Sequence record: MK373782.1
DNA: 64,000 bases
Source: Escherichia phage vB_EcoM_KAW3E185
Reading direction: 5' to 3' (one strand)
Position 1 is the first letter of the stretch. The number at the start of each line of letters is the position of its first letter. Of this stretch, positions 18,521-28,057 are shown piece after piece. Below the pieces are notes generated by a model. The model worked only from the letters and a program-made list of their open reading frames with translations. It did not search any database and was not told the DNA's origin. Made by a program: the position numbers and the translations under genes.

Positions 18521-18550
18521 ATAGTATCACACATCCGTGTGTTTGTAAAC
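18521..18550 (-). promoter_or_regulatory. Early promoter (GTTTAC / TACTAT)
   Basis: GTTTAC-18 nt-TACTAT on minus strand, immediately after the alt stop. Confidence 0.5.
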
Positions 18551-20637
18551 TATCCTTGGACAAATTTAAATGGAACTGATTCTAAATCCATTAAAGATGC
18601 TAACAATTTCAAACCTTTAGGTGCACTAGTTTTTTCTACAAATGAGGCAAAAGATACCGGCTCATCTGATTCGATTTCACCCGTCATAGCAACTACCTCG
18701 CCTGTTTCCATGAGAACATCACCATCGTAAATGACAGCTTCGTCCAACTGGTCCGAGGACATGACTTCAGCTTGAATAAATTTAAGGTTGGATTCTAAAC
18801 CTGCACCAGTGTCAGATGACGCATCTGTAATTTTATTTATCTGCAAGAGAATGCCTCTAGGCAAAATAATTTCTTGCTCATTAGGGTGATTACTCAACTG
18901 TCCGGGATAAATCACGTTAACTTTATGAGCGCCATCAATAGCCCATCCAACATTAACACGAATTTGTTCTGGCGCATGCATAGCGGTACGTGCCAGGCTA
19001 GGAGAAATAGTAACACCTTCGTCATTATTGTCAATGTTAAGCTCTTTGCGAACTTCTTCAGGAGCAAGTCCAAGGGCAACGTTCTCTTTAAACCCACCAA
19101 AAATAATAGGAGCTAATGAAGTAGAAACATAGTTTCTGAAGTAGAATACCTTATTTTTAACCATTGCTTCGTAAATAGGCATTCTGATAGACTGGGCTCT
19201 ATACAACGTTAGTCCTTCAGGTAAACGGTCTCCATTTAAAAACGCCGAATCAAGACCATCAATAGCGCGTTTAACTTCATCTTCATCTGCAACATCATAA
19301 AAATCCGGTTTATAACGGCCTAACAACATATTATTGATATCGGTATACGCAGAAGAGGCATATTCGCGAATAGCTCGTTTTTCAGCAACAGAGTATTGTT
19401 TAGGGTCCCGATTCATTGTTATATTAAAGGTGCCTCTAGCCGATTCTCGTGCATAAGTATACATCACATTAGACAAGAACGCTGATTTACGTTGTTTCCA
19501 AGTTTTTTCAGATACTTCAGCTAAAACATCGTCGGCCAGTTGGAAATTATCACGTCTAAAATCTTCAAACCATTCGTCTTTAATAGAGTCCGCAATTTCG
19601 TTTGCAGCTTCAACAAAAGCAGCTAATGCTTTAACAGATGTTGTTTTTTCAGTTTTAATTTTCTTAGCAAACTTTTCTAAAGTTGGCTTAATAACACTAC
19701 CATAAGAAACTTCATCAGCAAATCTAAAGGATTCATCAATACGATTATAAATCTTATTTTCGATATCAGCAACTAAAGTGCCTTTTGCTGTGGATGATGC
19801 TTGGGCTAGTACGATTTCATATGCTTCAGGAAGTAATTCGGCTGTAGCCGGGCCACTAACTTCTTTAGCAGAATTTTCGTATTTCTGGAATAACTCACCT
19901 TCTTGGCGGTCAGCTTCTAAAGATTGGCTTGCGGCAATAGCACGACGAGAAATTTTAGTACGAGCAATAACAGGCTTATCTTTACGTTTTTCTTCTACAG
20001 CAGCAATAGAACCAGCGATAGCCGTTTCTTTGGTGACTTTTTCGCCGGTCTTTTTACTCACATAAACTTCGCCAACATCAGAATCTACTTTCGTGTACAA
20101 CTCTGTGTTAATGTTAGGGATGCCTTTAATATCTTCAATGTTGGCATTTTTACGAACCATCATCACATAGGTGTGTTTACCTGTGAATTGATACATTGCC
20201 GACAATACTTTAAAACGACCACCGGTTTTAGTAGAAACTAAACGAGCAAGAAGAGTTTGAAGCTGTTGTCCACGTCCTTTCAATTTCTTGGTAGGGAATC
20301 GGAACAGAACTGCATCCATACGAAGAGCTTTAACTTGTTCATATACTGTATTGAAAATGGTGTTGATTGCATCAATAGGAGCAGGACCAAGGCCATTTTT
20401 CAATTCAGCGAGATTACCCTTTTCAGACAGACTCATAATAACAACATGAGCGTATTTGTCGCCAAGTTTAACTTGTTTTACAGCGTCGCCTTCGGAAAGG
20501 TAAGAGAATAAACGAACTACAATATTTGTATCGATATCACCAATTTTCCAGACTTGTGGAACTTTAGCTTTAGGGTTCAAATTGACGACAGGAAGACTGC
20601 CTTCAGATTCAAACACTTCATTTAATTGTTCAGACAT
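18550..20637 (-). CDS. alt: Alt, virion-packaged ADP-ribosyltransferase
   Basis: 695 aa; long collinear similarity to T4 Alt (…FQKYENSAK…FYFRNYVSTSL…VIYPGQ…). Confidence 0.9.
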   Translation of the reverse strand: MSEQLNEVFESEGSLPVVNLNPKAKVPQVWKIGDIDTNIVVRLFSYLSEGDAVKQVKLGDKYAHVVIMSLSEKGNLAELKNGLGPAPIDAINTIFNTVYEQVKALRMDAVLFRFPTKKLKGRGQQLQTLLARLVSTKTGGRFKVLSAMYQFTGKHTYVMMVRKNANIEDIKGIPNINTELYTKVDSDVGEVYVSKKTGEKVTKETAIAGSIAAVEEKRKDKPVIARTKISRRAIAASQSLEADRQEGELFQKYENSAKEVSGPATAELLPEAYEIVLAQASSTAKGTLVADIENKIYNRIDESFRFADEVSYGSVIKPTLEKFAKKIKTEKTTSVKALAAFVEAANEIADSIKDEWFEDFRRDNFQLADDVLAEVSEKTWKQRKSAFLSNVMYTYARESARGTFNITMNRDPKQYSVAEKRAIREYASSAYTDINNMLLGRYKPDFYDVADEDEVKRAIDGLDSAFLNGDRLPEGLTLYRAQSIRMPIYEAMVKNKVFYFRNYVSTSLAPIIFGGFKENVALGLAPEEVRKELNIDNNDEGVTISPSLARTAMHAPEQIRVNVGWAIDGAHKVNVIYPGQLSNHPNEQEIILPRGILLQINKITDASSDTGAGLESNLKFIQAEVMSSDQLDEAVIYDGDVLMETGEVVAMTGEIESDEPVSFASFVEKTSAPKGLKLLASLMDLESVPFKFVQG

Positions 20638-20669
20638 AGTGTTTTCCTTTTAGTAATAATTTATATTTA

Positions 20670-20693
20670 TGCCAAAAAGAGCCCGAAGGCTCT
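20670..20693 (-). terminator. Terminator hairpin between ligase operon and alt
   Basis: Minus strand: agagcc-UUCG-ggcucu followed by UUUU. Confidence 0.5.
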
Positions 20694-20881
20694 TAATCCA
20701 CAATCGGAAGCAAAGTACGATAAACTTCAAAATTAGAGCCTTTTTCGTACTTATCGAAATTGTCCATAAAAATATGATAGGAATCGTTATTAGGAAAATC
20801 TAATATAATCTGAGAGCAAGAGGTGGAAACATCTCCACCATCCTTCTTAGCTACAATAACTGTTTCTAAATAAGCTTTCAT
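20693..20881 (-). CDS. Hypothetical protein, translationally coupled to ligase (TAATG)
   Basis: 62-aa ORF from ATG overlapping the ligase stop codon. Confidence 0.45.
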   Translation of the reverse strand: MKAYLETVIVAKKDGGDVSTSCSQIILDFPNNDSYHIFMDNFDKYEKGSNFEVYRTLLPIVD

Positions 20882-22374
20882 TATAAACCTGTCTGGGACC
20901 ACGGTCCAAATACGTCTTCAAACGAATCCGCTTCTGTTTTATCAAAACGGAACCCTTTAATAATTGGGAGGAAAATACCTACAGTGCCTTCACGTCCTTT
21001 AGAATGAACCCAACCATTGCATTCACAATCAGCAATACGTCCAATCAATTTACCTTCACGAGCTTCGGTCATTAATCGTTCACGGTCCAAATCATGTCGC
21101 TCATCTAAAGGAATAAGAACCTTTACACCATCAACTGTTTTATGAGTTGTATCTTTAAACCCTGAACCACAATCGGTTGTAATACGACGACAACGTGATA
21201 CGAGTTCGACACCACCTAATTTGTTAGGGTCTTTAGAGTGTTCATAGTATCCTACAACTTCTAAAGCGATATCAATAACTTCTTTAAACTTAATTAGGTT
21301 CTTAGAGCGTTTGTTTTCCCAATATGAATCACGGTTTTTAAGGATAATACCTTCAAGACCTTGGTCAACATATTTTTTATAAACCACTTTAGCTTCGTCA
21401 AGATTACGAACTAACTGATTTTCAATTGGCTCAATTCGTTTAAAGCCTTCAGCCATATTTTCAAGAGCAGCAAAACGAACATCGTATTTCTGACCTTTAA
21501 TTTTGCCATCAGAATAGACTTCATCTAAAGGAACATAGTCCCAGGCTTGAAGAACCATACCTTCAGCTTCTTTAGGAGAAATAGTCCCTTGAAGAGATTT
21601 ATTTGCTAAACCGTTTGAAGTGCTACGGTCCGCAACTTGTACTTCTTCGGATTCTTCATTATCACCAAATAAGAACGACAGGTCATTTCCTGAGCTCACA
21701 GCCTTTTTAATATCAAATGAATGGTAAACTAATTCACCGTCGATTAAAACCCCATTAGGGTGTCTTTCACGAGCTTCTTTAGTCATTTCCATTAGTTCAT
21801 CCGCTAATAGAGTAAGACCATGATATTCGTTGCCGGCACGAGAAAAGAATTGAACACCATCATCGCGAACTTCAGCGAAACAACGAGCACCATCTGCTTT
21901 TAATTGGGCAAATGCGGGCCATTTAATATTTTTAGTAATCAATTTCTCGTCATATGCAGATGCTAACATCTGTGGTTGCAATTGAATAAGTCCAGGCCAC
22001 ACCTTATTCGCGATAGACACTGAAGCACCTACTTCAAGGTCGCGCATCATTACACGACGAAGGACTTCTACATCATCAGGTTTACCATCAGCGATATAAC
22101 CCATGAGCTCTTTAATTGCAGCATTACCAGTGAGTTTACGAGTGGCTAATGTGAACTCAATAAAATCCAACATGTCATCTAATTCAAGAAGACCATACGC
22201 TTGAGACCTTTCACCTGGTCCTGGCCATTTCTTAATATAATACTGGATACCACGTGCATATGTTAAACGATACACACGTTCAAGTAATTTGTTGTCCTTA
22301 TTTTTCTTAAGGATTTCCTGTTTTGTTTTAGTAGAACCGATCGCAGCTATTTGGTTTAAAATATCTAAAATCAT
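20881..22374 (-). CDS. 30: ATP-dependent DNA ligase gp30
   Basis: 497 aa, strong identity to T4 DNA ligase (MILDILNQIAAIGSTKTKQEIL…, KADGAR adenylation motif). Confidence 0.95.
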   Translation of the reverse strand: MILDILNQIAAIGSTKTKQEILKKNKDNKLLERVYRLTYARGIQYYIKKWPGPGERSQAYGLLELDDMLDFIEFTLATRKLTGNAAIKELMGYIADGKPDDVEVLRRVMMRDLEVGASVSIANKVWPGLIQLQPQMLASAYDEKLITKNIKWPAFAQLKADGARCFAEVRDDGVQFFSRAGNEYHGLTLLADELMEMTKEARERHPNGVLIDGELVYHSFDIKKAVSSGNDLSFLFGDNEESEEVQVADRSTSNGLANKSLQGTISPKEAEGMVLQAWDYVPLDEVYSDGKIKGQKYDVRFAALENMAEGFKRIEPIENQLVRNLDEAKVVYKKYVDQGLEGIILKNRDSYWENKRSKNLIKFKEVIDIALEVVGYYEHSKDPNKLGGVELVSRCRRITTDCGSGFKDTTHKTVDGVKVLIPLDERHDLDRERLMTEAREGKLIGRIADCECNGWVHSKGREGTVGIFLPIIKGFRFDKTEADSFEDVFGPWSQTGL

Positions 22375-22640
22375 TTGATGTCCTCGATTTTGGTTACGGT
22401 TCTATTATAAGCCACTTCATCTAGAAGCGATTTCAGCGTTTTCTGATAAGTTGTAATCCATTTACCGAGTCCTTCAACATAGTATTCTGAAATGTAGATG
22501 AACCCTTGTTCAACACACTCTTTAAATATTTCTGCGTCTTTTACTGAACGAAACAATGGCCAGTCTCGAAAGAACATGTTAACGTGACCGTAGTCACGTG
22601 TGGTATTTTTGCCATCTGTAATATCATGAACTACAAACAT
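22371..22640 (-). CDS. Hypothetical protein (30.1-like)
   Basis: 89-aa ORF, 4-nt overlap with ligase start. Confidence 0.5.
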   Translation of the reverse strand: MFVVHDITDGKNTTRDYGHVNMFFRDWPLFRSVKDAEIFKECVEQGFIYISEYYVEGLGKWITTYQKTLKSLLDEVAYNRTVTKIEDIK

Positions 22641-22649
22641 AATTAACCC

Positions 22650-23474
22650 TTAACAATTTATAGACCAAGTCCATTTAGACGAATCTAAAGGAAAGTTTTG
22701 AATCGTCCACCACGGCTGCATATCAGTTGGTCCTGGGGTTCGCCAGGTATATGGAGTACGTGTTGTCGAGGGGCCACCAATTTGATTAGGCCATGCACCT
22801 GGACTTGTTGCACCAGATTCTTTAAGCAAATCCGCCAATCGTTTTAAAAGGTCTTCACGATCTGAATCTGAATTATTCTTAGGCAGAACCAAACGAGATT
22901 CAATATCATCCCACGTGTGTACACGTTGTGCAGTACGAGGAATGGCATCACGTTCACCACGAGCCAACCAATAAATCGGTACATTAAGAATTTCTGCCGC
23001 ATGGTCACAATGATGAGCTAAATCGTCAACGTAACAAATTACGTTATATTTTGTTTTAGCTAGTTCGAATAATTGTTCCTTTGAAGAATCATGACCACAC
23101 ATCATTACTTCAGAGAAAGCGCCTGGGAACAAAGCATTCAAATTAAATTGTCTATTCAATCGAGCATCAATTGAATCACCTAGCGCCGTCACGGCTACAA
23201 AATTATAGTCTTCTTTTAGTTTATTGATAACTCGAAGAGCATCAGAATAAGGCGCTAAGTAACGAATAAAATCAGAGCTATTATATTTTTCTATTAATTG
23301 TTTACCAAGGTTATCGTCGGTATTGAACAGTTTACCAGGAGAAATAAATTTTTCGTCCTGAATCATTTTTAAAATATGTTCTAATGGAAGGTTATATTTT
23401 TGGGCAAAATAAGGAAGTCCAGATTGCCAGCTTAAACATACACCATCAATATCAGTCAAAATAGTAGGCTTCAT
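22650..23474 (-). CDS. HAD-superfamily hydrolase-like protein (30.2-like)
   Basis: N-terminal DxDGV motif (LTDIDGVCL) typical of HAD phosphatases. Confidence 0.6.
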   Translation of the reverse strand: MKPTILTDIDGVCLSWQSGLPYFAQKYNLPLEHILKMIQDEKFISPGKLFNTDDNLGKQLIEKYNSSDFIRYLAPYSDALRVINKLKEDYNFVAVTALGDSIDARLNRQFNLNALFPGAFSEVMMCGHDSSKEQLFELAKTKYNVICYVDDLAHHCDHAAEILNVPIYWLARGERDAIPRTAQRVHTWDDIESRLVLPKNNSDSDREDLLKRLADLLKESGATSPGAWPNQIGGPSTTRTPYTWRTPGPTDMQPWWTIQNFPLDSSKWTWSINC

Positions 23475-23938
23475 AAAGAGTCTCTTAATAGGTTTAACAC
23501 GTCAATAAATTCATCTTCAGTTAGTATTGTATCATCTTTTGTTAGGTGGCTGGCCATGCTGTGCTTCAAAATTTTTCCTTTAGAGGCTTGTAAGGCATCA
23601 CGAAACCCCTTGTTTTGGATCGCGGCTTCAAAATATGCATTTGTGTATAATTCTTTCCACGCTTCAGAGTATCTTGAAAATGGAACTCCTAACCAGAAGA
23701 GAGTCCCACGGTCCTGAGCTCTTGCATAAGACCTTCCAGCTTGCTGTGCAGCCAATCCAGACAACCCAAATATACGTCTTTGTTGTTCAACATTTTTCAC
23801 CTTACATCCTTGGAGAAATCCTTCAAGACCTCCGAATTGAATACCATCCATAACAAAAGGCCATTGAGCAAAGTTACTTAATGCACATGACGGCCATTTG
23901 AAATTACTTCTTATTTCTAATTCAGACATCTTTAACAC
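23471..23938 (-). CDS. NADAR / YbiA-family (DUF1768) protein (30.3-like)
   Basis: LSNFAQWPFVMDGIQF…EGFLQGCK resembles E. coli YbiA FSNFAAWPIKVDGKTW…EHYFQAQK. Confidence 0.65.
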   Translation of the reverse strand: MLKMSELEIRSNFKWPSCALSNFAQWPFVMDGIQFGGLEGFLQGCKVKNVEQQRRIFGLSGLAAQQAGRSYARAQDRGTLFWLGVPFSRYSEAWKELYTNAYFEAAIQNKGFRDALQASKGKILKHSMASHLTKDDTILTEDEFIDVLNLLRDSL

Positions 23939-24140
23939 TTATAATTTCAACATCAGCCCAATGTCCGTATCCAGGTATACGGTCTTCGATAGATAAATTT
24001 CTGTCATTTTTAGGCATTTTAATTGACGTAACGTATGGTTCTAAACGGTTTTCCGCGTAATATGGAAAAACGTCAGTTACACGATAAGTAACTTCAATCA
24101 TTTCCGTACCAAACAATTTCTGGATTAATTTATTCAACAT
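23922..24140 (-). CDS. Hypothetical small protein
   Basis: 72-aa ORF in a tightly packed minus-strand operon. Confidence 0.4.
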   Translation of the reverse strand: MLNKLIQKLFGTEMIEVTYRVTDVFPYYAENRLEPYVTSIKMPKNDRNLSIEDRIPGYGHWADVEIISVKDV

Positions 24141-24327
24141 GTTTCAACCCTTTAATAGGAGATAACTCTTTACCCATACGTATGTCAGAAGTCCCATCAA
24201 CCCATTGAACAGCATACGCTTCATTGATAATTCCAGCGGCAGTTTTAAATTCTTTGAGAACTTTAAAAATCATCCCAGGGATTCCAACACCTTTTAATTG
24301 GACTGTTTGTGCTATTAAAAATTTCAT
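24130..24327 (-). CDS. Hypothetical small protein
   Basis: 65-aa ORF in operon context. Confidence 0.4.
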   Translation of the reverse strand: MKFLIAQTVQLKGVGIPGMIFKVLKEFKTAAGIINEAYAVQWVDGTSDIRMGKELSPIKGLKHVE

Positions 24328-24381
24328 ATTTTTCCACTTACTAAAGAAATCATTATACTCTAATCCGTCCTTGGATGTACA

Positions 24382-24996
24382 CTACTTAATGAAATTAATT
24401 TCTACCGGATGAACAACAGGTTGAGCAGTGATATATTGAGTAATTGCTTTCATGACTAGAGCTTCAGAACCAGGATTTTTCTCAACGAATTCACGTGCTA
24501 GGTTATGAGCTTCGAGTTCACTCAATAAACCGGAACGCTGGCATCCACGGTCTTGAGTACCCTGTTCAGATAAAAGGACTACTACATATTTTTCATCGTC
24601 GTAGGGCTTAGCCAGTTGAGCAAATGTTCCTTTACTTCCAAAAGGAGAGTTATGTCGCCACATCACGCCGTGAGGAGTTTCAACCTTCGTATATTCGTGC
24701 GGTCCATTTTTCTTAGTTTCTTGATGTGGAACTTCATAGACCTTAGGGTTAGGACATTCAATAAAATGCTCATCTAAATCGGTCGAGAATATTAAAGTAA
24801 AACAATTACTGAATTTACCAACACCGGCCTGATAAATTTTACCTTCAGAAGTTCTAATTTCACAAACTGAGCCGGCATCAGTAACTTCTAAAACTTCAAA
24901 AGGCTCAATAAGGTCATATGAGAACATGTTTTTAAGGCGTGGAGTAATATCCCCATTTTTAAAATTCATTTTATAAAAAGTATTAACTTTAAACAT
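24382..24996 (-). CDS. Hypothetical protein (30.x cluster)
   Basis: Start placed at ATG (MFKVNTFYK) preceded by GAGG; the ORF-track start at 25026 is a TTG inside a hairpin. Confidence 0.55.
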   Translation of the reverse strand: MFKVNTFYKMNFKNGDITPRLKNMFSYDLIEPFEVLEVTDAGSVCEIRTSEGKIYQAGVGKFSNCFTLIFSTDLDEHFIECPNPKVYEVPHQETKKNGPHEYTKVETPHGVMWRHNSPFGSKGTFAQLAKPYDDEKYVVVLLSEQGTQDRGCQRSGLLSELEAHNLAREFVEKNPGSEALVMKAITQYITAQPVVHPVEINFIK

Positions 24997-25031
24997 AATT
25001 TCCTCAGTGGGAGCCGAAGCTCCCAATTAAT

Positions 25032-25397
25032 TTAGATATCAAATTCGTTAAGAACTACATCAAAGATTGCTTCGAGATGTTCAGGTTTAGCTCGGTTACT
25101 CAGGATATGACGAATCCAAGTTTTAACCAGAAGTTTACGATTAACACCATTCCAGCAAGGATGAGTACCTAAATCACGCTGACGGAAATCATCATCTAAT
25201 GCAATTTTAAAATTTGAACCTTCCATCGTGATTGAAACCGTGATACCATTTTCAAATCGCATATAAACGTAATTAGGAGTCATGCACTGTTCGATTTCAC
25301 AAACTGTACCGTTTTCGTGTTTCCATAAGCAAATAACTTCAGAAGAACCAGCAATACCGTTAGAAACATATTTACGTTCGAAGTTGGTGTAGTTCAT
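25032..25397 (-). CDS. Hypothetical protein (30.x cluster)
   Basis: 121-aa ORF with its own early promoter. Confidence 0.5.
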   Translation of the reverse strand: MNYTNFERKYVSNGIAGSSEVICLWKHENGTVCEIEQCMTPNYVYMRFENGITVSITMEGSNFKIALDDDFRQRDLGTHPCWNGVNRKLLVKTWIRHILSNRAKPEHLEAIFDVVLNEFDI

Positions 25398-25438
25398 TTT
25401 ATTCTCCAGATGTTTAAGTTGTTTGTTGGTACAGGTCT

Positions 25439-25467
25439 ATAATAACATAACCTGTACCAAAGTAAAC
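25439..25467 (-). promoter_or_regulatory. Early promoter (GTTTAC-17-TATTAT)
   Basis: Consensus early promoter; −10 embedded in an 11-bp inverted repeat. Confidence 0.55.
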
Positions 25468-25471
25468 TGTT

Positions 25472-25840
25472 TTATGCAACTTTAATCCAATTGTCTAAAT
25501 TTAAAACACCTTTGGCTTTCATTTTTTCGATCAGGTTATCTGCTGTAATGCGTCCATTTTGATACCATGTAACATCTTCAGAGTAACCAGTTTCTTCGTC
25601 AACATATGTTTCTGAACGAATTTTACCGGTAATAATAGTTTTTAATTCATATGTGTCACCTGTGAAAAAGTTTGCTAACACAATTTTCCAAGAGAAATCA
25701 TCTGAAGGACCTTCAGGGGTCATACAACCTACGAACTCAAATTGCTCTTTGTATAACATCCACTGGAATTCTTTAATTTCGATAGCTTTATAACCGTCGT
25801 GGTCTTTACATTTGATGTATGAGTTCAGATTGATTTTCAT
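25472..25840 (-). CDS. Hypothetical protein (30.x cluster)
   Basis: 122-aa ORF. Confidence 0.5.
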   Translation of the reverse strand: MKINLNSYIKCKDHDGYKAIEIKEFQWMLYKEQFEFVGCMTPEGPSDDFSWKIVLANFFTGDTYELKTIITGKIRSETYVDEETGYSEDVTWYQNGRITADNLIEKMKAKGVLNLDNWIKVA

Positions 25841-25882
25841 TTTGTTCTCCGGTTTGTTTTATCGATTAGGTGGTACAAGTCT

Positions 25883-25911
25883 ATAGTAACACATCCTACA
25901 GGAGAGTAAAC
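25883..25911 (-). promoter_or_regulatory. Early promoter (GTTTAC-17-TACTAT)
   Basis: Consensus match upstream of ORF 25472-25840. Confidence 0.55.
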
Positions 25912-25935
25912 ATCTTTTTTAAACTTTTTCTGCCC

Positions 25936-25966
25936 TAAACGCACAAAAGGGAGACCGAAGTCTCCC
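25936..25966 (-). terminator. CUUCGG tetraloop terminator hairpin
   Basis: gggagac-cgaa-gtctccc; minus transcript has a UUCG loop followed by UUUUGUGCGUUU. Confidence 0.55.
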
Positions 25967-25971
25967 TAAAA

Positions 25972-26151
25972 TTATGCAACAACCTTTCCAAAACGAGAAG
26001 CATCATCTCGAAGAACTGCACGTGCTCTGCGCATGATCTTCTCAACTGTTTGATTAATACGAGAGTTCGACCCACGCTTGTATCCAGCGCGTTTAGAGGT
26101 ACCATCAACTTTCTTTTCAACTGCTTTCTTTGCTTTAGCTTGTTTTGCCAT
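25972..26151 (-). CDS. Small basic hypothetical protein (59 aa)
   Basis: Hand-translated MAKQAKAKKAVEKKVDGTSKRAGYKRGSNSRINQTVEKIMRRARAVLRDDASRFGKVVA; SD AAAGAG upstream; not on the ORF track (a different frame was listed). Confidence 0.4.
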   Translation of the reverse strand: MAKQAKAKKAVEKKVDGTSKRAGYKRGSNSRINQTVEKIMRRARAVLRDDASRFGKVVA

Positions 26152-26307
26152 TATAAATTCTCTTTAAATGAAAATGCAGGACTTATTGACATTGCCTGCG
26201 CAAGCCCTCAAGGGGAACATAGGTTTTGGATATTTAACGACAGGATAACCATAAACCCGTCATCATACCAACCACGACTTAGACAGATAACCTTTTTCTG
26301 ACGCGTG

Positions 26308-26336
26308 ATAGTACAAAATACATTCAAGAGGTAAAC
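26308..26336 (-). promoter_or_regulatory. Early promoter (GTTTAC-17-TACTAT) about 150 nt upstream of the small basic ORF
   Basis: Consensus match within the 263-nt intergenic region downstream of rIII. Confidence 0.45.
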
Positions 26337-26414
26337 CGTAAAACTGCCGGGGACTTAAAACTATAATGATTCGCAAATCATTAATCAGACAGTTCGACGG
26401 CTCCTCGATTTAAC

Positions 26415-26663
26415 TTACTTTAGGGTAATAACAAAATGACGTACTGCTTTACGAGCTGCAGAAGCCAAAGGCTTAGCATATTTCAGTTCATCTTTTGCTT
26501 CCAGTTCAGAGGCCAAAGCTGCCTGGACCGGGTTCAGATGTTTGAAATATCGCAGGATTTCAAGAGCTTCGGCTTCAACATCGATAGATGCGCCATAGTT
26601 TTCGTGACCATTATTCCATGCGTTACGTTGCAGTTCAAGAGCGTGTTGTAATTGTTTAATCAT
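26415..26663 (-). CDS. rIII: rIII lysis-inhibition accessory protein
   Basis: 82 aa, T4 rIII size and position next to gene 31. Confidence 0.8.
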   Translation of the reverse strand: MIKQLQHALELQRNAWNNGHENYGASIDVEAEALEILRYFKHLNPVQAALASELEAKDELKYAKPLASAARKAVRHFVITLK

Positions 26664-26779
26664 TTTAAATTCTCAATTCGAGATAATATTTAGTAGCCAC
26701 GTTCGACTGAATTTCACCTTCTTTCGACAGGTCTCTCAGTTGTAGGCTACCGCTTAGAAGAGTGTTCTCTTCATATAGT

Positions 26780-26787
26780 TATTTATA
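26780..26787 (-). promoter_or_regulatory. Late promoter (TATAAATA on minus strand) upstream of rIII
   Basis: Plus strand tatttata immediately 3' of the gene 31 stop. Confidence 0.45.
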
Positions 26788-27120
26788 TCACTTATAAAGA
26801 CACGGAATAGCTTTATAATGGCATGTTACGAATTTCTGTTTAATTTCTTTAGGTTGTTTAAGTCCCAAAGCCACAAATGGATGTGGAACATTTCGAATTT
26901 GTCCAACTGGTAGTGGAGTCAAATCACCGACTTCAACAAAACCTTCAGGAACATCAGGACCTACAGAATGAACTACACATAGTTCAGGAACTTCACCTTG
27001 AACACGTTTACCAATCACAAGTCCTGATTCGGTAACTTCTTCATCACCTGCTTGAGCGGGTTCAGAAACCAGAATGACATATTCACCAACAGCACGAATT
27101 GGGAGTTGTACTTCAGACAT
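26788..27120 (-). CDS. 31: Co-chaperonin gp31 (GroES-like)
   Basis: 110 aa, T4 gp31. Confidence 0.9.
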
Positions 27121-27150
27121 CTTATTTCCTTGTTGTTTGACGATAGATTA

Positions 27151-27176
27151 ATAATACCATACTATTCGTAAAGCAT
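27151..27176 (-). promoter_or_regulatory. Putative middle promoter for gene 31
   Basis: Minus strand TGCTTTA (MotA box) - 13 nt - TATTAT. Confidence 0.4.
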
Positions 27177-27177
27177 A

Positions 27178-27486
27178 TTACATAAGAAGCAAACGTTCTA
27201 CCGGAGTACCATCAACCGAAATTACTTTATCAAGGCGGAAAGAACGCCACTGACCTAACTTGGTATCGAATGCTCGAACTGATTCACGAGGTTCAGAACG
27301 AACTTCTGATGCCGGATTGTTATTTTCATATTTGACTTCAAGTTCATCGCGAGAAGCAAACATAGTGCGTACCTCACCGTTAGCCTTTTCAAATACAATA
27401 CAATGAACGCCTACAGACAGAATAGTTTTAATACGTTCACGAAGAACCATAGTTTCTTTTTCAGTTAAAATCATATTATTCACCAC
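27178..27486 (-). CDS. Hypothetical protein (31.1-like)
   Basis: 102-aa ORF between cd and 31. Confidence 0.5.
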   Translation of the reverse strand: MVNNMILTEKETMVLRERIKTILSVGVHCIVFEKANGEVRTMFASRDELEVKYENNNPASEVRSEPRESVRAFDTKLGQWRSFRLDKVISVDGTPVERLLLM

Positions 27487-28057
27487 AAAAGTTTCGGATT
27501 TGTTCCCAATTCAGAGAACGAAGATTATTACGAGAGTACTGAATTACTTCAATACCGGCTTGTTTTAGAATGTCTGCCCAATTTTCAGGAGATCTGTCAT
27601 ATAATTCTGCGTATACAACCTTTTTAATACCTGACTGTGTAATAGCTTTAGTGCAATCAGGACATGGAGAAAGCGTCGTATATAATGTAGCACCTTCAAT
27701 AGAATTACCTTTACGAGCTGCAAACAAAATTGCATTCAATTCAGCATGGATTTCGTTATTAGCAGACCATGCACTATGAGCGGCCCGATGTTCTTTAGCC
27801 AAAACAAAATTATCTGCCCGTCCAAATGCTGTAGTGCCTTCTTTATGCCCAGCAACGATGACCGGGCTTGGTTTATTCTTCAACCAACCGTTTTCGGATG
27901 CATGTTCGCAACAGTTTGTACCACCTGAAGGAGAGCCATTATAACCTGTAGAAATAATGCGTCCATCTTTTTCAATGACGGCGCCAACTTTCCATGAACA
28001 ACATTTTGATTCTTGAGAAATCAGATATGCAATCTGAAGGTATGTGCTAGCTTTCAT
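27476..28057 (-). CDS. cd: dCMP deaminase
   Basis: 193 aa; zinc-binding deaminase motifs HAELNAI and SPCPDC. Confidence 0.95.
   Translation of the reverse strand: MKASTYLQIAYLISQESKCCSWKVGAVIEKDGRIISTGYNGSPSGGTNCCEHASENGWLKNKPSPVIVAGHKEGTTAFGRADNFVLAKEHRAAHSAWSANNEIHAELNAILFAARKGNSIEGATLYTTLSPCPDCTKAITQSGIKKVVYAELYDRSPENWADILKQAGIEVIQYSRNNLRSLNWEQIRNFCGE

What the first reader, a model, noticed from the sequence alone, without database searches (positions are those of the whole stretch)
23471..23938. NADAR/YbiA-family protein in the early 30.x operon: candidate ADP-ribose/DNA-modification reversal enzyme
The 155-aa ORF shares the YbiA/NADAR signature region (LSNFAQWPFVMDGIQF…EGFLQGCK against E. 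coli YbiA FSNFAAWPIKVDGKTW…EHYFQAQK). NADAR domains have been reported to hydrolyse ADP-ribosyl adducts, including on DNA bases. In a phage early operon, next to a HAD-like hydrolase (22650-23474), this could be a counter-defence function against host ADP-ribosylating toxins such as DarT, or a nucleotide-salvage function.
Basis: partly seen in the sequence, partly recalled or inferred. Interest (0 to 1): 0.45.

Follow-up and report, generated by a model that had tools for sequence, protein, structure and literature searches.

The report
Known phage anti-DarT enzyme AdfN (gp30.3)

Summary
The ORF is real. The likely coding sequence is 23471..23929 on the minus strand, 152 aa from an ATG. The 155-aa reading starts at an upstream GTG.

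It is 146/152 identical to T4 gp30.3 and scores 232 bits against Pfam PF08010 (Phage_30_3). On its own it does not reach PF08719 (NADAR). The link to NADAR is still solid:
- 23 of 61 family members hit PF08719.
- The residues E36, K43 and the phage-clade H123 are invariant.

The window comes from a Mosigvirus, the genus of RB69. It lacks the frameshift that truncates and weakens RB69's allele.

The neighbouring gp30.2 does have a HAD fold, but it is not consistently linked to the NADAR gene in other phages.

Verdict: observation confirmed, interpretation supported, already known, low interest.

The parts
23471..23929 (-). adfN (gene 30.3) coding sequence, 152 aa, phage-clade NADAR ADP-ribosylglycohydrolase
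23930..23938 (-). Three extra codons (GTG-TTA-AAG) of the mechanical ORF, probably not translated as part of the protein
   Evidence: T4, APCEc01 and PinkRuby annotations all start at the ATG, 459 nt. Family alignment N-termini begin at or after this ATG.
23822..23824 (-). Codon GAA = Glu36, which binds the distal ribose (equivalent to PnNADAR E43 and E. coli C7 NADAR E88)
   Evidence: Invariant in 61 homologues. Aligned to the YbiA Glu in SEHYFQAQK. Mutated in T4 AdfN (E36A) with loss of function (PMC11257639, PMC11825919).
23801..23803 (-). Codon AAG = Lys43, which binds the phosphates (equivalent to PnNADAR K50 and C7 NADAR K95)
   Evidence: Invariant in the family. Same E-x6-K spacing as YbiA and PnNADAR. 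K43A impairs T4 AdfN (PMC11825919).
23561..23563 (-). Codon CAC = His123 in the last beta-strand, the residue that marks the phage NADAR clade (Glu in YbiA, Asp in DarG1-type)
   Evidence: Invariant in the family. Lies in strand 120-123 of the model. Clade rule stated in PMC11125620 and PMC11543638.
23477..23518 (-). C-terminal alpha-helix (residues 138-151), intact here
   Evidence: Helix 138-151 in the model. RB69 has an extra T at gene position 411 that creates a TGA and removes this helix; the window lacks the insertion. Truncation reduces activity (PMC11825919).
22650..23474 (-). Context only: gene 30.2. HAD-superfamily hydrolase core (about residues 1-200) plus a disordered, variable C-terminal tail. 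Start overlaps the adfN stop.
   Evidence: D8xD10, T96, K132, D150-D151 conserved in 51 homologues. AF2 core pLDDT above 90. Foldseek hits are HAD enzymes, with 5'(3')-deoxyribonucleotidases giving the lowest rmsd.
23922..24140 (-). Context only: gene 30.4 homologue, whose stop overlaps the adfN start by 8 nt
   Evidence: ORF. PHROG 2042, E = 2.4e-35. Same position as T4 30.4.

Best explanation
The gene is the ortholog of T4 adfN (gene 30.3), carried by a Mosigvirus-type T-even phage. It encodes a minimal NADAR enzyme that consists of the YbiA-like core only.

Proposed mechanism: when a DarTG1-carrying host is infected, the DarT1 toxin ADP-ribosylates guanines in phage DNA and blocks replication. 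AdfN binds the ADP-ribose (Lys43 on the phosphates; Glu36 and His123 around the distal ribose). It cleaves the N-glycosidic bond to guanine, restoring unmodified DNA and allowing replication. It does this catalytically, without binding the toxin.

Shown here: gene integrity, orthology, NADAR fold, conserved active-site residues, and an intact C-terminal helix.

Taken from published experiments on the 96%-identical T4 protein: the enzymatic activity, guanine specificity and DarTG1 phenotype.

Inferred: that this particular allele, in an arabinosyl-hmC phage background, behaves the same way.
For: - Orthology: 146/152 identity to T4 gp30.3, with all six differences outside invariant columns. PF08010 E = 2.2e-69. 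Same gene order as T4 and RB69: alt, alt.1, 30, 30.1, 30.2, 30.3, 30.4.
- NADAR membership: profile hit to YbiA, hhalign 93%, 23/61 homologues hit PF08719.
- Active site: E36, K43 and H123 are invariant.
- Integrity: no RB69-type frameshift.
- Literature: AdfN removes DarT1-made ADP-ribose from DNA and is necessary and sufficient against DarTG1, and E36A, K43A and the C-terminal truncation impair it (PMC11257639, PMC11825919). In vitro guanine-ADPr hydrolysis by T4 NADAR is reported in PMC11125620. adfN insertions are lost on DarTG1 hosts (10.1101/2025.11.20.689424).
Against: - No experiment exists on this allele or this phage.
- The window protein alone does not reach the PF08719 model, nor any NCBIfam or PADLOC model.
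- T4 AdfN fails to detoxify DarT1 in uninfected cells and works poorly for phages with unmodified DNA (PMC11257639). Its real substrate preference (hmC-containing DNA) is not fully understood.
- T4 NADAR also removes guanine-ADPr from RNA in vitro (cited in PMC12945103), so DNA may not be its only target.
Confidence: 0.9

Rival explanations
1. It mainly acts on soluble or RNA-linked ADP-ribose derivatives rather than on DNA adducts. Candidates are immune signalling nucleotides, by-products of RNA repair, or guanine-ADPr on RNA.
For: [quoted passage not shown] T4 NADAR removes RNA G-ADPr in vitro (cited in PMC12945103). Distant homologues sit inside tRNA gene clusters in Karamvirus and Ralstonia phage RSP15, the latter two genes upstream of an 'RNA-binding protein' gene.
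Against: The DarTG1 phenotype of adfN deletion in T4 and T2, together with removal of ADPr from DarT1-modified DNA, directly supports a DNA target (PMC11825919). No soluble substrate has been shown. At most this is an additional role.
Confidence: 0.06
2. It is a YbiA-type N-glycosidase working in riboflavin-intermediate detoxification or nucleotide salvage, perhaps together with the adjacent HAD phosphatase gp30.2.
For: It shares fold and motif with E. coli YbiA. The neighbouring gene encodes a HAD fold closest to deoxyribonucleotidases. The 30.3-30.2 adjacency is kept in an Acinetobacter Lazarusvirus.
Against: The Glu that defines the YbiA subfamily is replaced by His123 (PMC11125620). AdfN alone is sufficient for counter-defence (PMC11825919). 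The 30.2 linkage is absent in Karamvirus, Schizotequatrovirus and RSP15. There is no riboflavin gene context.
Confidence: 0.02
3. It reverses or tunes ADP-ribosylation written by the phage's own transferases (Alt, ModA, ModB). Alt is encoded 3 kb away.
For: Alt (PF03496, E = 2.9e-28) lies at 18550..20637 in the same transcriptional direction and region. [quoted passage not shown]
Against: Alt and Mod modify arginine on proteins (established T4 knowledge), whereas all tested NADARs act on guanine (some on cytidine) base adducts (PMC11125620, PMC12945103). The proximity is shared synteny of the ligase region and is lost in other genera.
Confidence: 0.02

Closest known systems
T4 AdfN (gp30.3), anti-DarT factor NADAR (Johannesman, Carlson & LeRoux, Nat Commun 2025;16:1598)
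   Same: Same length (152 aa), 96% identity, same genomic slot between 30.2 and 30.4. E36, K43 and H123 are kept, the C-terminal helix is intact, and the fold is NADAR core only.
   Different: Six substitutions: K11R, E89P, I120V, M125I, H128G, D139A (window residue first), none in an invariant column. The host genome is a Mosigvirus (arabinosyl-hmC DNA in RB69, per PMC11257639) rather than a Tequatrovirus (glucosyl-hmC).
RB69 gp30.3 (naturally truncated AdfN allele)
   Same: Same genus-level background. The DNA of the gene is nearly identical to the window.
   Different: RB69 has an extra T at gene position 411 that gives a TGA and a 137-aa product lacking the last helix. RB69 is DarTG1-sensitive. 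The window has no insertion.
DarG1 antitoxins (BC4488-type NADAR, e.g. G. lovleyi 8bat, E. coli C7 NADAR)
   Different: There is no adjacent DarT gene and no N-terminal beta-beta-alpha extension that forms the DNA groove. The last strand carries His instead of Asp. T4 AdfN cannot replace DarG1 in uninfected cells (PMC11257639, PMC11125620).
E. coli YbiA (2b3w), riboflavin-intermediate N-glycosidase in the LexA-controlled ybiA-dinG-ybiB region
   Same: Bare NADAR core without extensions. Best Foldseek hit (E = 6.9e-5, TM 0.68). Shares the SNFA..W/P..DG...E..FQ..K motif.
   Different: About 20% identity. YbiA has Glu where the phage clade has His123. YbiA does not protect against DarT1 in vivo (PMC11125620).
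Other phage anti-DarT factors: AdfA (gp61.2), AdfB (ICP1), AdfM (Tk.4 macrodomain)
   Same: All have the same biological purpose, neutralising DarTG defence.
   Different: AdfA and AdfB are thought to act by binding the toxin (shown for AdfA by two-hybrid assay; PMC11257639). AdfM is a macrodomain aimed at thymidine-ADPr made by DarT2 (10.1101/2025.11.20.689424). None is homologous to AdfN.

Membership tests
NADAR superfamily (YbiA fold; Pfam PF08719) | Alpha-helical core flanked by two small beta-sheets (YbiA-like fold) | tested here: met
NADAR superfamily (YbiA fold; Pfam PF08719) | Conserved Glu and Lys seven residues apart (E-x6-K) that bind the distal ribose and the phosphates | tested here: met
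   E36 and K43 are invariant in 61 homologues. They align to the E and K of YbiA's SEHYFQAQK. Their roles are defined in PMC11543638.
NADAR superfamily (YbiA fold; Pfam PF08719) | Significant match to the PF08719 profile | tested here: inconclusive
   The window protein alone has no hit at E <= 1. 23 of 61 close family members hit PF08719, best E = 1.5e-7. The family profile against YbiA gives E = 0.0088, and hhalign gives 93%.
NADAR superfamily (YbiA fold; Pfam PF08719) | Hydrolysis of guanine-linked ADP-ribose | not testable with these tools
   Shown for the 96%-identical T4 protein (PMC11125620, PMC11825919), not for this allele.
Phage NADAR clade = gp30.3 / AdfN (Pfam PF08010) | Match to PF08010 above the gathering score | tested here: met
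   232 bits against a cut-off of 36, full-length match 1-138/138.
Phage NADAR clade = gp30.3 / AdfN (Pfam PF08010) | Histidine in the last beta-strand, in place of the Glu (YbiA) or Asp (DarG1) residue | tested here: met
   H123 is invariant in the family alignment and lies in strand 120-123. The rule is stated in PMC11125620.
Phage NADAR clade = gp30.3 / AdfN (Pfam PF08010) | Full-length product with the C-terminal helix needed for full activity | tested here: met
   The reading frame is open to residue 152 and lacks the RB69 +T at nt 411. Helix 138-151 is modelled at high confidence.
Phage NADAR clade = gp30.3 / AdfN (Pfam PF08010) | Protection of the phage against DarTG1 | not testable with these tools
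   Needs plaque assays. Shown for T4 and T2 (PMC11825919) and by transposon screen (10.1101/2025.11.20.689424).
DarG1 antitoxin (BC4488-type NADAR of DarTG1 operons) | Encoded next to a DarT1 ADP-ribosyltransferase gene | tested here: not met
   The neighbours are 30.4 (PHROG 2042) and 30.2 (HAD fold). No DarT was found and there is no PADLOC hit.
DarG1 antitoxin (BC4488-type NADAR of DarTG1 operons) | N-terminal extension (beta1-beta2-alpha1) and Asp in the last strand | tested here: not met
   The 152-aa protein is the core only (PMC12945103) and has His123 at that position.
YbiA subfamily (riboflavin-intermediate N-glycosidase) | Glutamate in the last beta-strand | tested here: not met
   The position is occupied by the invariant His123. 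The subfamily rule is in PMC11125620 and PMC11543638.

The most novel reading that the evidence does not exclude
AdfN and the translationally coupled gp30.2 might form a two-enzyme module in the ligase-region phages. gp30.2 is a HAD hydrolase with a deoxyribonucleotidase-like fold and a disordered, fast-evolving C-terminal tail. In this module the HAD enzyme would process the ADP-ribose (or a nucleotide product) released by AdfN, or would target AdfN to modified phage DNA. That could explain why T4 AdfN works only in the context of T-even infection.
Probability: 0.05. Interest if true: 0.4.

Novelty: already known. Interest (0 to 1): 0.1.

Why it matters
It shows that the first-stage reader can recover a genuine counter-defence enzyme from raw sequence. 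It adds no new biology, because gp30.3/AdfN has been described bioinformatically (2012, 2022, 2023), biochemically (2024) and genetically (2025).

The useful local point is predictive. This RB69-like (Mosigvirus) genome carries the intact allele, so it should plaque on DarTG1 hosts where RB69 does not. Most database records, including the closest relative APCEc01, still label the gene 'hypothetical protein' and could be re-annotated as adfN.

Tried and rejected
- Single-sequence searches of the window protein found nothing for NADAR: Pfam PF08719, NCBIfam, PADLOC and phmmer against the PDB (only a chance lectin hit at E = 2.4). Family profiles and fold comparison were needed.
- The sigma-70 promoter and terminator scan of 20500-27500 was at the chance level (25 found against 21.5 expected). 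It says nothing about early transcription.
It was repeated without that row.
- A functional pairing of 30.3 with 30.2 was considered. It was largely rejected because the adjacency is missing in Karamvirus, Schizotequatrovirus and Ralstonia phage RSP15 and AdfN alone is sufficient in T4 (PMC11825919).
- T4's annotated internal out-of-frame gene 30.3' was checked as a possible hidden feature. It is interrupted here.
- A pseudogene or truncated allele like RB69's was rejected by DNA alignment.

Full report
**What is at the coordinates**

The minus strand carries an uninterrupted ORF at 23471..23938, 155 aa from a GTG. Three codons downstream there is an ATG at 23929. T4, APCEc01 and PinkRuby all annotate their 459-nt gene from the equivalent ATG. 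Homologues in the family alignment begin at or after this position. The likely product is therefore 152 aa (23471..23929). That ATG overlaps the stop codon of the upstream gene, the 30.4 homologue, by 8 nt (ATGTCTGA). The TGA of the ORF overlaps the ATG of the downstream gene 30.2 (ATGA). This tight packing is typical of a co-translated phage gene string.

**Where the window comes from**

The 2.1-kb stretch around the gene is 99.7% identical to Escherichia phage APCEc01. That phage is classified in Mosigvirus, the genus of RB69. Gene order matches T4 and RB69: alt, alt.1, DNA ligase (30), 30.1 (DUF3045), 30.2, 30.3, 30.4, and so on to rIII, 31 and cd.

**Checking the observation**

- Scanned alone, the protein matches Pfam PF08010 'Phage_30_3' over its whole length (E = 2.2e-69, 232 bits, cut-off 36). 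It does not match PF08719 (NADAR) even at E <= 1.
- It matches PHROG 652 (unknown function).
- It matches nothing in NCBIfam or PADLOC, and phmmer against PDB sequences finds nothing meaningful.

- BLASTP against K-12 YbiA, fetched from NC_000913, aligns residues 17-70 with YbiA 29-83. It pairs LSNFAQWPFVMDGIQFGGLEGFLQGCK with FSNFAAWPIKVDGKTWPTSEHYFQAQK (pairwise E = 8e-6).
- I collected 82 homologues and aligned 61 full-length ones (A1).
- A profile of that alignment finds YbiA (2b3w) as the only credible hit in the PDB sequence set, E = 0.0088, over the same stretch.
- hhalign of the alignment against YbiA gives 93% probability, E = 2.9e-7.
- 23 of the 61 members individually hit PF08719, best E = 1.5e-7.
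- One cluster already carries both Pfam labels, and three carry JGI's 'YbiA (DUF1768 family)' name.

**Fold**

**Active site and integrity**

The invariant columns of the family alignment include E36, K43 and H123.

- E36 and K43 have the same seven-residue spacing as PnNADAR E43/K50 and E. coli C7 NADAR E88/K95. Those residues bind the distal ribose and the phosphates and are needed for guanine-ADPr hydrolysis (PMC11543638).
- H123 lies in the last beta-strand of the model (strand 120-123). This is the position that separates the NADAR families: Glu in YbiA, Asp in DarT-associated NADARs, His in phage gp30.3 proteins (PMC11125620; PMC11543638).
- The protein is 146/152 identical to T4 gp30.3, and the six differences avoid all invariant columns.
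- A DNA alignment with RB69 and T4 shows RB69's extra T at gene position 411. It creates a TGA and a 137-aa product. The window lacks this insertion and reads through the C-terminal helix, residues 138-151.

**What is already known**

- De Souza and Aravind's NADAR classification already listed the phage branch (cited in PMC11543638 and PMC11125620).
- Iyer et al. 2022 noted that NADAR genes in T4-like phages are early genes expressed along with the ARTs (PMC9503650).
- Schuller et al. 2023 showed that NADARs reverse guanine ADP-ribosylation made by DarT1 (PMC11543638).
- A 2024 study showed that the T4 phage NADAR (gp30.3) hydrolyses guanine-ADPr but not thymidine-ADPr in vitro, and that it does not rescue cells from DarT1 (PMC11125620).
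- Johannesman, Carlson and LeRoux (preprint PMC11257639; Nat Commun 2025;16:1598, PMC11825919) mapped DarTG1 resistance of T-even phages to gene 30.3 by phage crosses and renamed it adfN.
  - Expressing it rescues RB69, and deleting it sensitises T4 and T2 by about four logs.
  - It does not bind DarT1.
  - It removes ADP-ribose from DarT1-modified DNA.
  - E36A, K43A and the RB69-like truncation impair it.
  - It does not counter DarTG2, and it works best on T-even (hydroxymethylated) DNA.
- A transposon screen later found adfN insertions lost specifically on DarTG1 hosts. It also identified Tk.4 (AdfM) as the macrodomain counterpart for DarTG2 (10.1101/2025.11.20.689424).

**Mechanism proposed for this gene**

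- Shown here: an intact, conserved ortholog with a NADAR fold and a complete catalytic triad.
- Taken from experiments on the T4 ortholog: catalytic removal of ADP-ribose from guanine N2 in phage DNA, which undoes DarT1 and allows replication.
- Inferred: the same holds for this allele in a Mosigvirus background. It follows that this phage, unlike RB69, should be DarTG1-resistant. This agrees with the report that RB69's closest relatives with full-length alleles are resistant.

**Rival readings**

The rivals are a soluble or RNA-linked ADPr substrate, a YbiA-like metabolic glycosidase, and an eraser for the phage's own Alt/Mod transferases. Each has only contextual support, and the published genetics or the His123 substitution contradicts or outweighs each of them. 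They are best seen as possible side activities.

**The neighbour, gp30.2**

By sequence, gp30.2 (22650..23474) is only weakly HAD-like:

- Pfam HAD_2 E = 0.014, below threshold.
- A profile of four homologues against 5'(3')-deoxyribonucleotidase 2jao gives E = 0.011.
- One homologue hits NT5C at E = 0.0087.

The stronger evidence is structural. All four HAD motifs are conserved across 51 homologues: D8xD10, K132 and D150-D151 are invariant and T96 is nearly so. The AF2 model has a high-confidence core that matches many HAD enzymes, and the deoxyribonucleotidases give the lowest rmsd.

The pairing with 30.3 is kept in an Acinetobacter Lazarusvirus and loosely in an Aeromonas phage. It is absent in Karamvirus, Schizotequatrovirus and Ralstonia phage RSP15. 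AdfN alone is sufficient in T4. The adjacency therefore looks like inherited synteny rather than a functional unit.

**Distribution**

tblastn finds the gene in 1,510 of 50,697 phage records. These are nearly all T4-like phages of Escherichia, Klebsiella, Shigella, Aeromonas, Acinetobacter, Vibrio and other hosts. Almost all copies are annotated 'hypothetical protein'.

**Verdict**

The feature is an already characterised counter-defence enzyme, and interest is low.

Noticed in passing
window 23471-23929 compared with RB69 (L010:9216-9681): The window is from RB69's genus (Mosigvirus) but lacks RB69's +T frameshift at gene position 411. RB69's truncated, weakened adfN therefore looks like an isolate-specific lesion rather than a genus trait.
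   Followed up: yes
window 23566-23793 (-): T4's annotated out-of-frame internal gene 30.3' (75 aa, 'internal translation within gene 30.3') is split by a stop codon here into ORFs of 34 and 24 aa. This argues against 30.3' being a conserved coding gene.
   Followed up: partly
window 22650-23474 (-), especially 22650-22870: gp30.2 has a confident HAD core (residues 1 to about 200) followed by a tail of about 70 aa rich in Trp, Pro and Thr. The tail is modelled as disordered (pLDDT below 60), differs strongly from T4's tail, and is absent from the Acinetobacter and Aeromonas phage homologues.
   Followed up: partly
window 24382-25026 (-): A 204-214-aa ORF (annotated in APCEc01 as a 204-aa hypothetical protein) occupies the slot where T4 and RB69 have the roughly 95-aa gene 30.6. 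It has no Pfam hit. This looks like a variable cargo position in the 30.x string.
   Followed up: partly
L004 (Klebsiella phage KaAlpha) 5001-5450; L008 (Ralstonia phage RSP15) 4995-5513: In these distant phages the gp30.3-family NADAR gene lies inside a tRNA gene cluster. In RSP15 it sits two genes upstream of an 'RNA-binding protein' gene. This hints at an RNA-related role for some clade members.
   Followed up: no
homologue list (P0008, P0014, P0017, P0049): Several complete T-even genomes (SV76, UGJNEcP4, vB_Eco_NR1, vB_EcoM-RPN226) carry gp30.3 products of only 86-109 aa, some with a second Pfam label. Disrupted or recombined adfN alleles may therefore be more common than RB69 alone.
   Followed up: no
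window 23471-23929 (PHROG 652 match): The protein matches only positions 126-272 of the 296-position PHROG 652 profile, and a few homologues are 201-254 aa long (P0029, P0033, P0079). Some family members therefore carry an N-terminal extension of unknown nature.
   Followed up: no
window 18550-20637 (-): The Alt ADP-ribosyltransferase (PF03496, E = 2.9e-28) is encoded about 3 kb from adfN on the same strand. The phage therefore keeps an ADP-ribose 'writer' and an 'eraser' in one region, although their known substrates differ (protein arginine and DNA guanine).
   Followed up: partly
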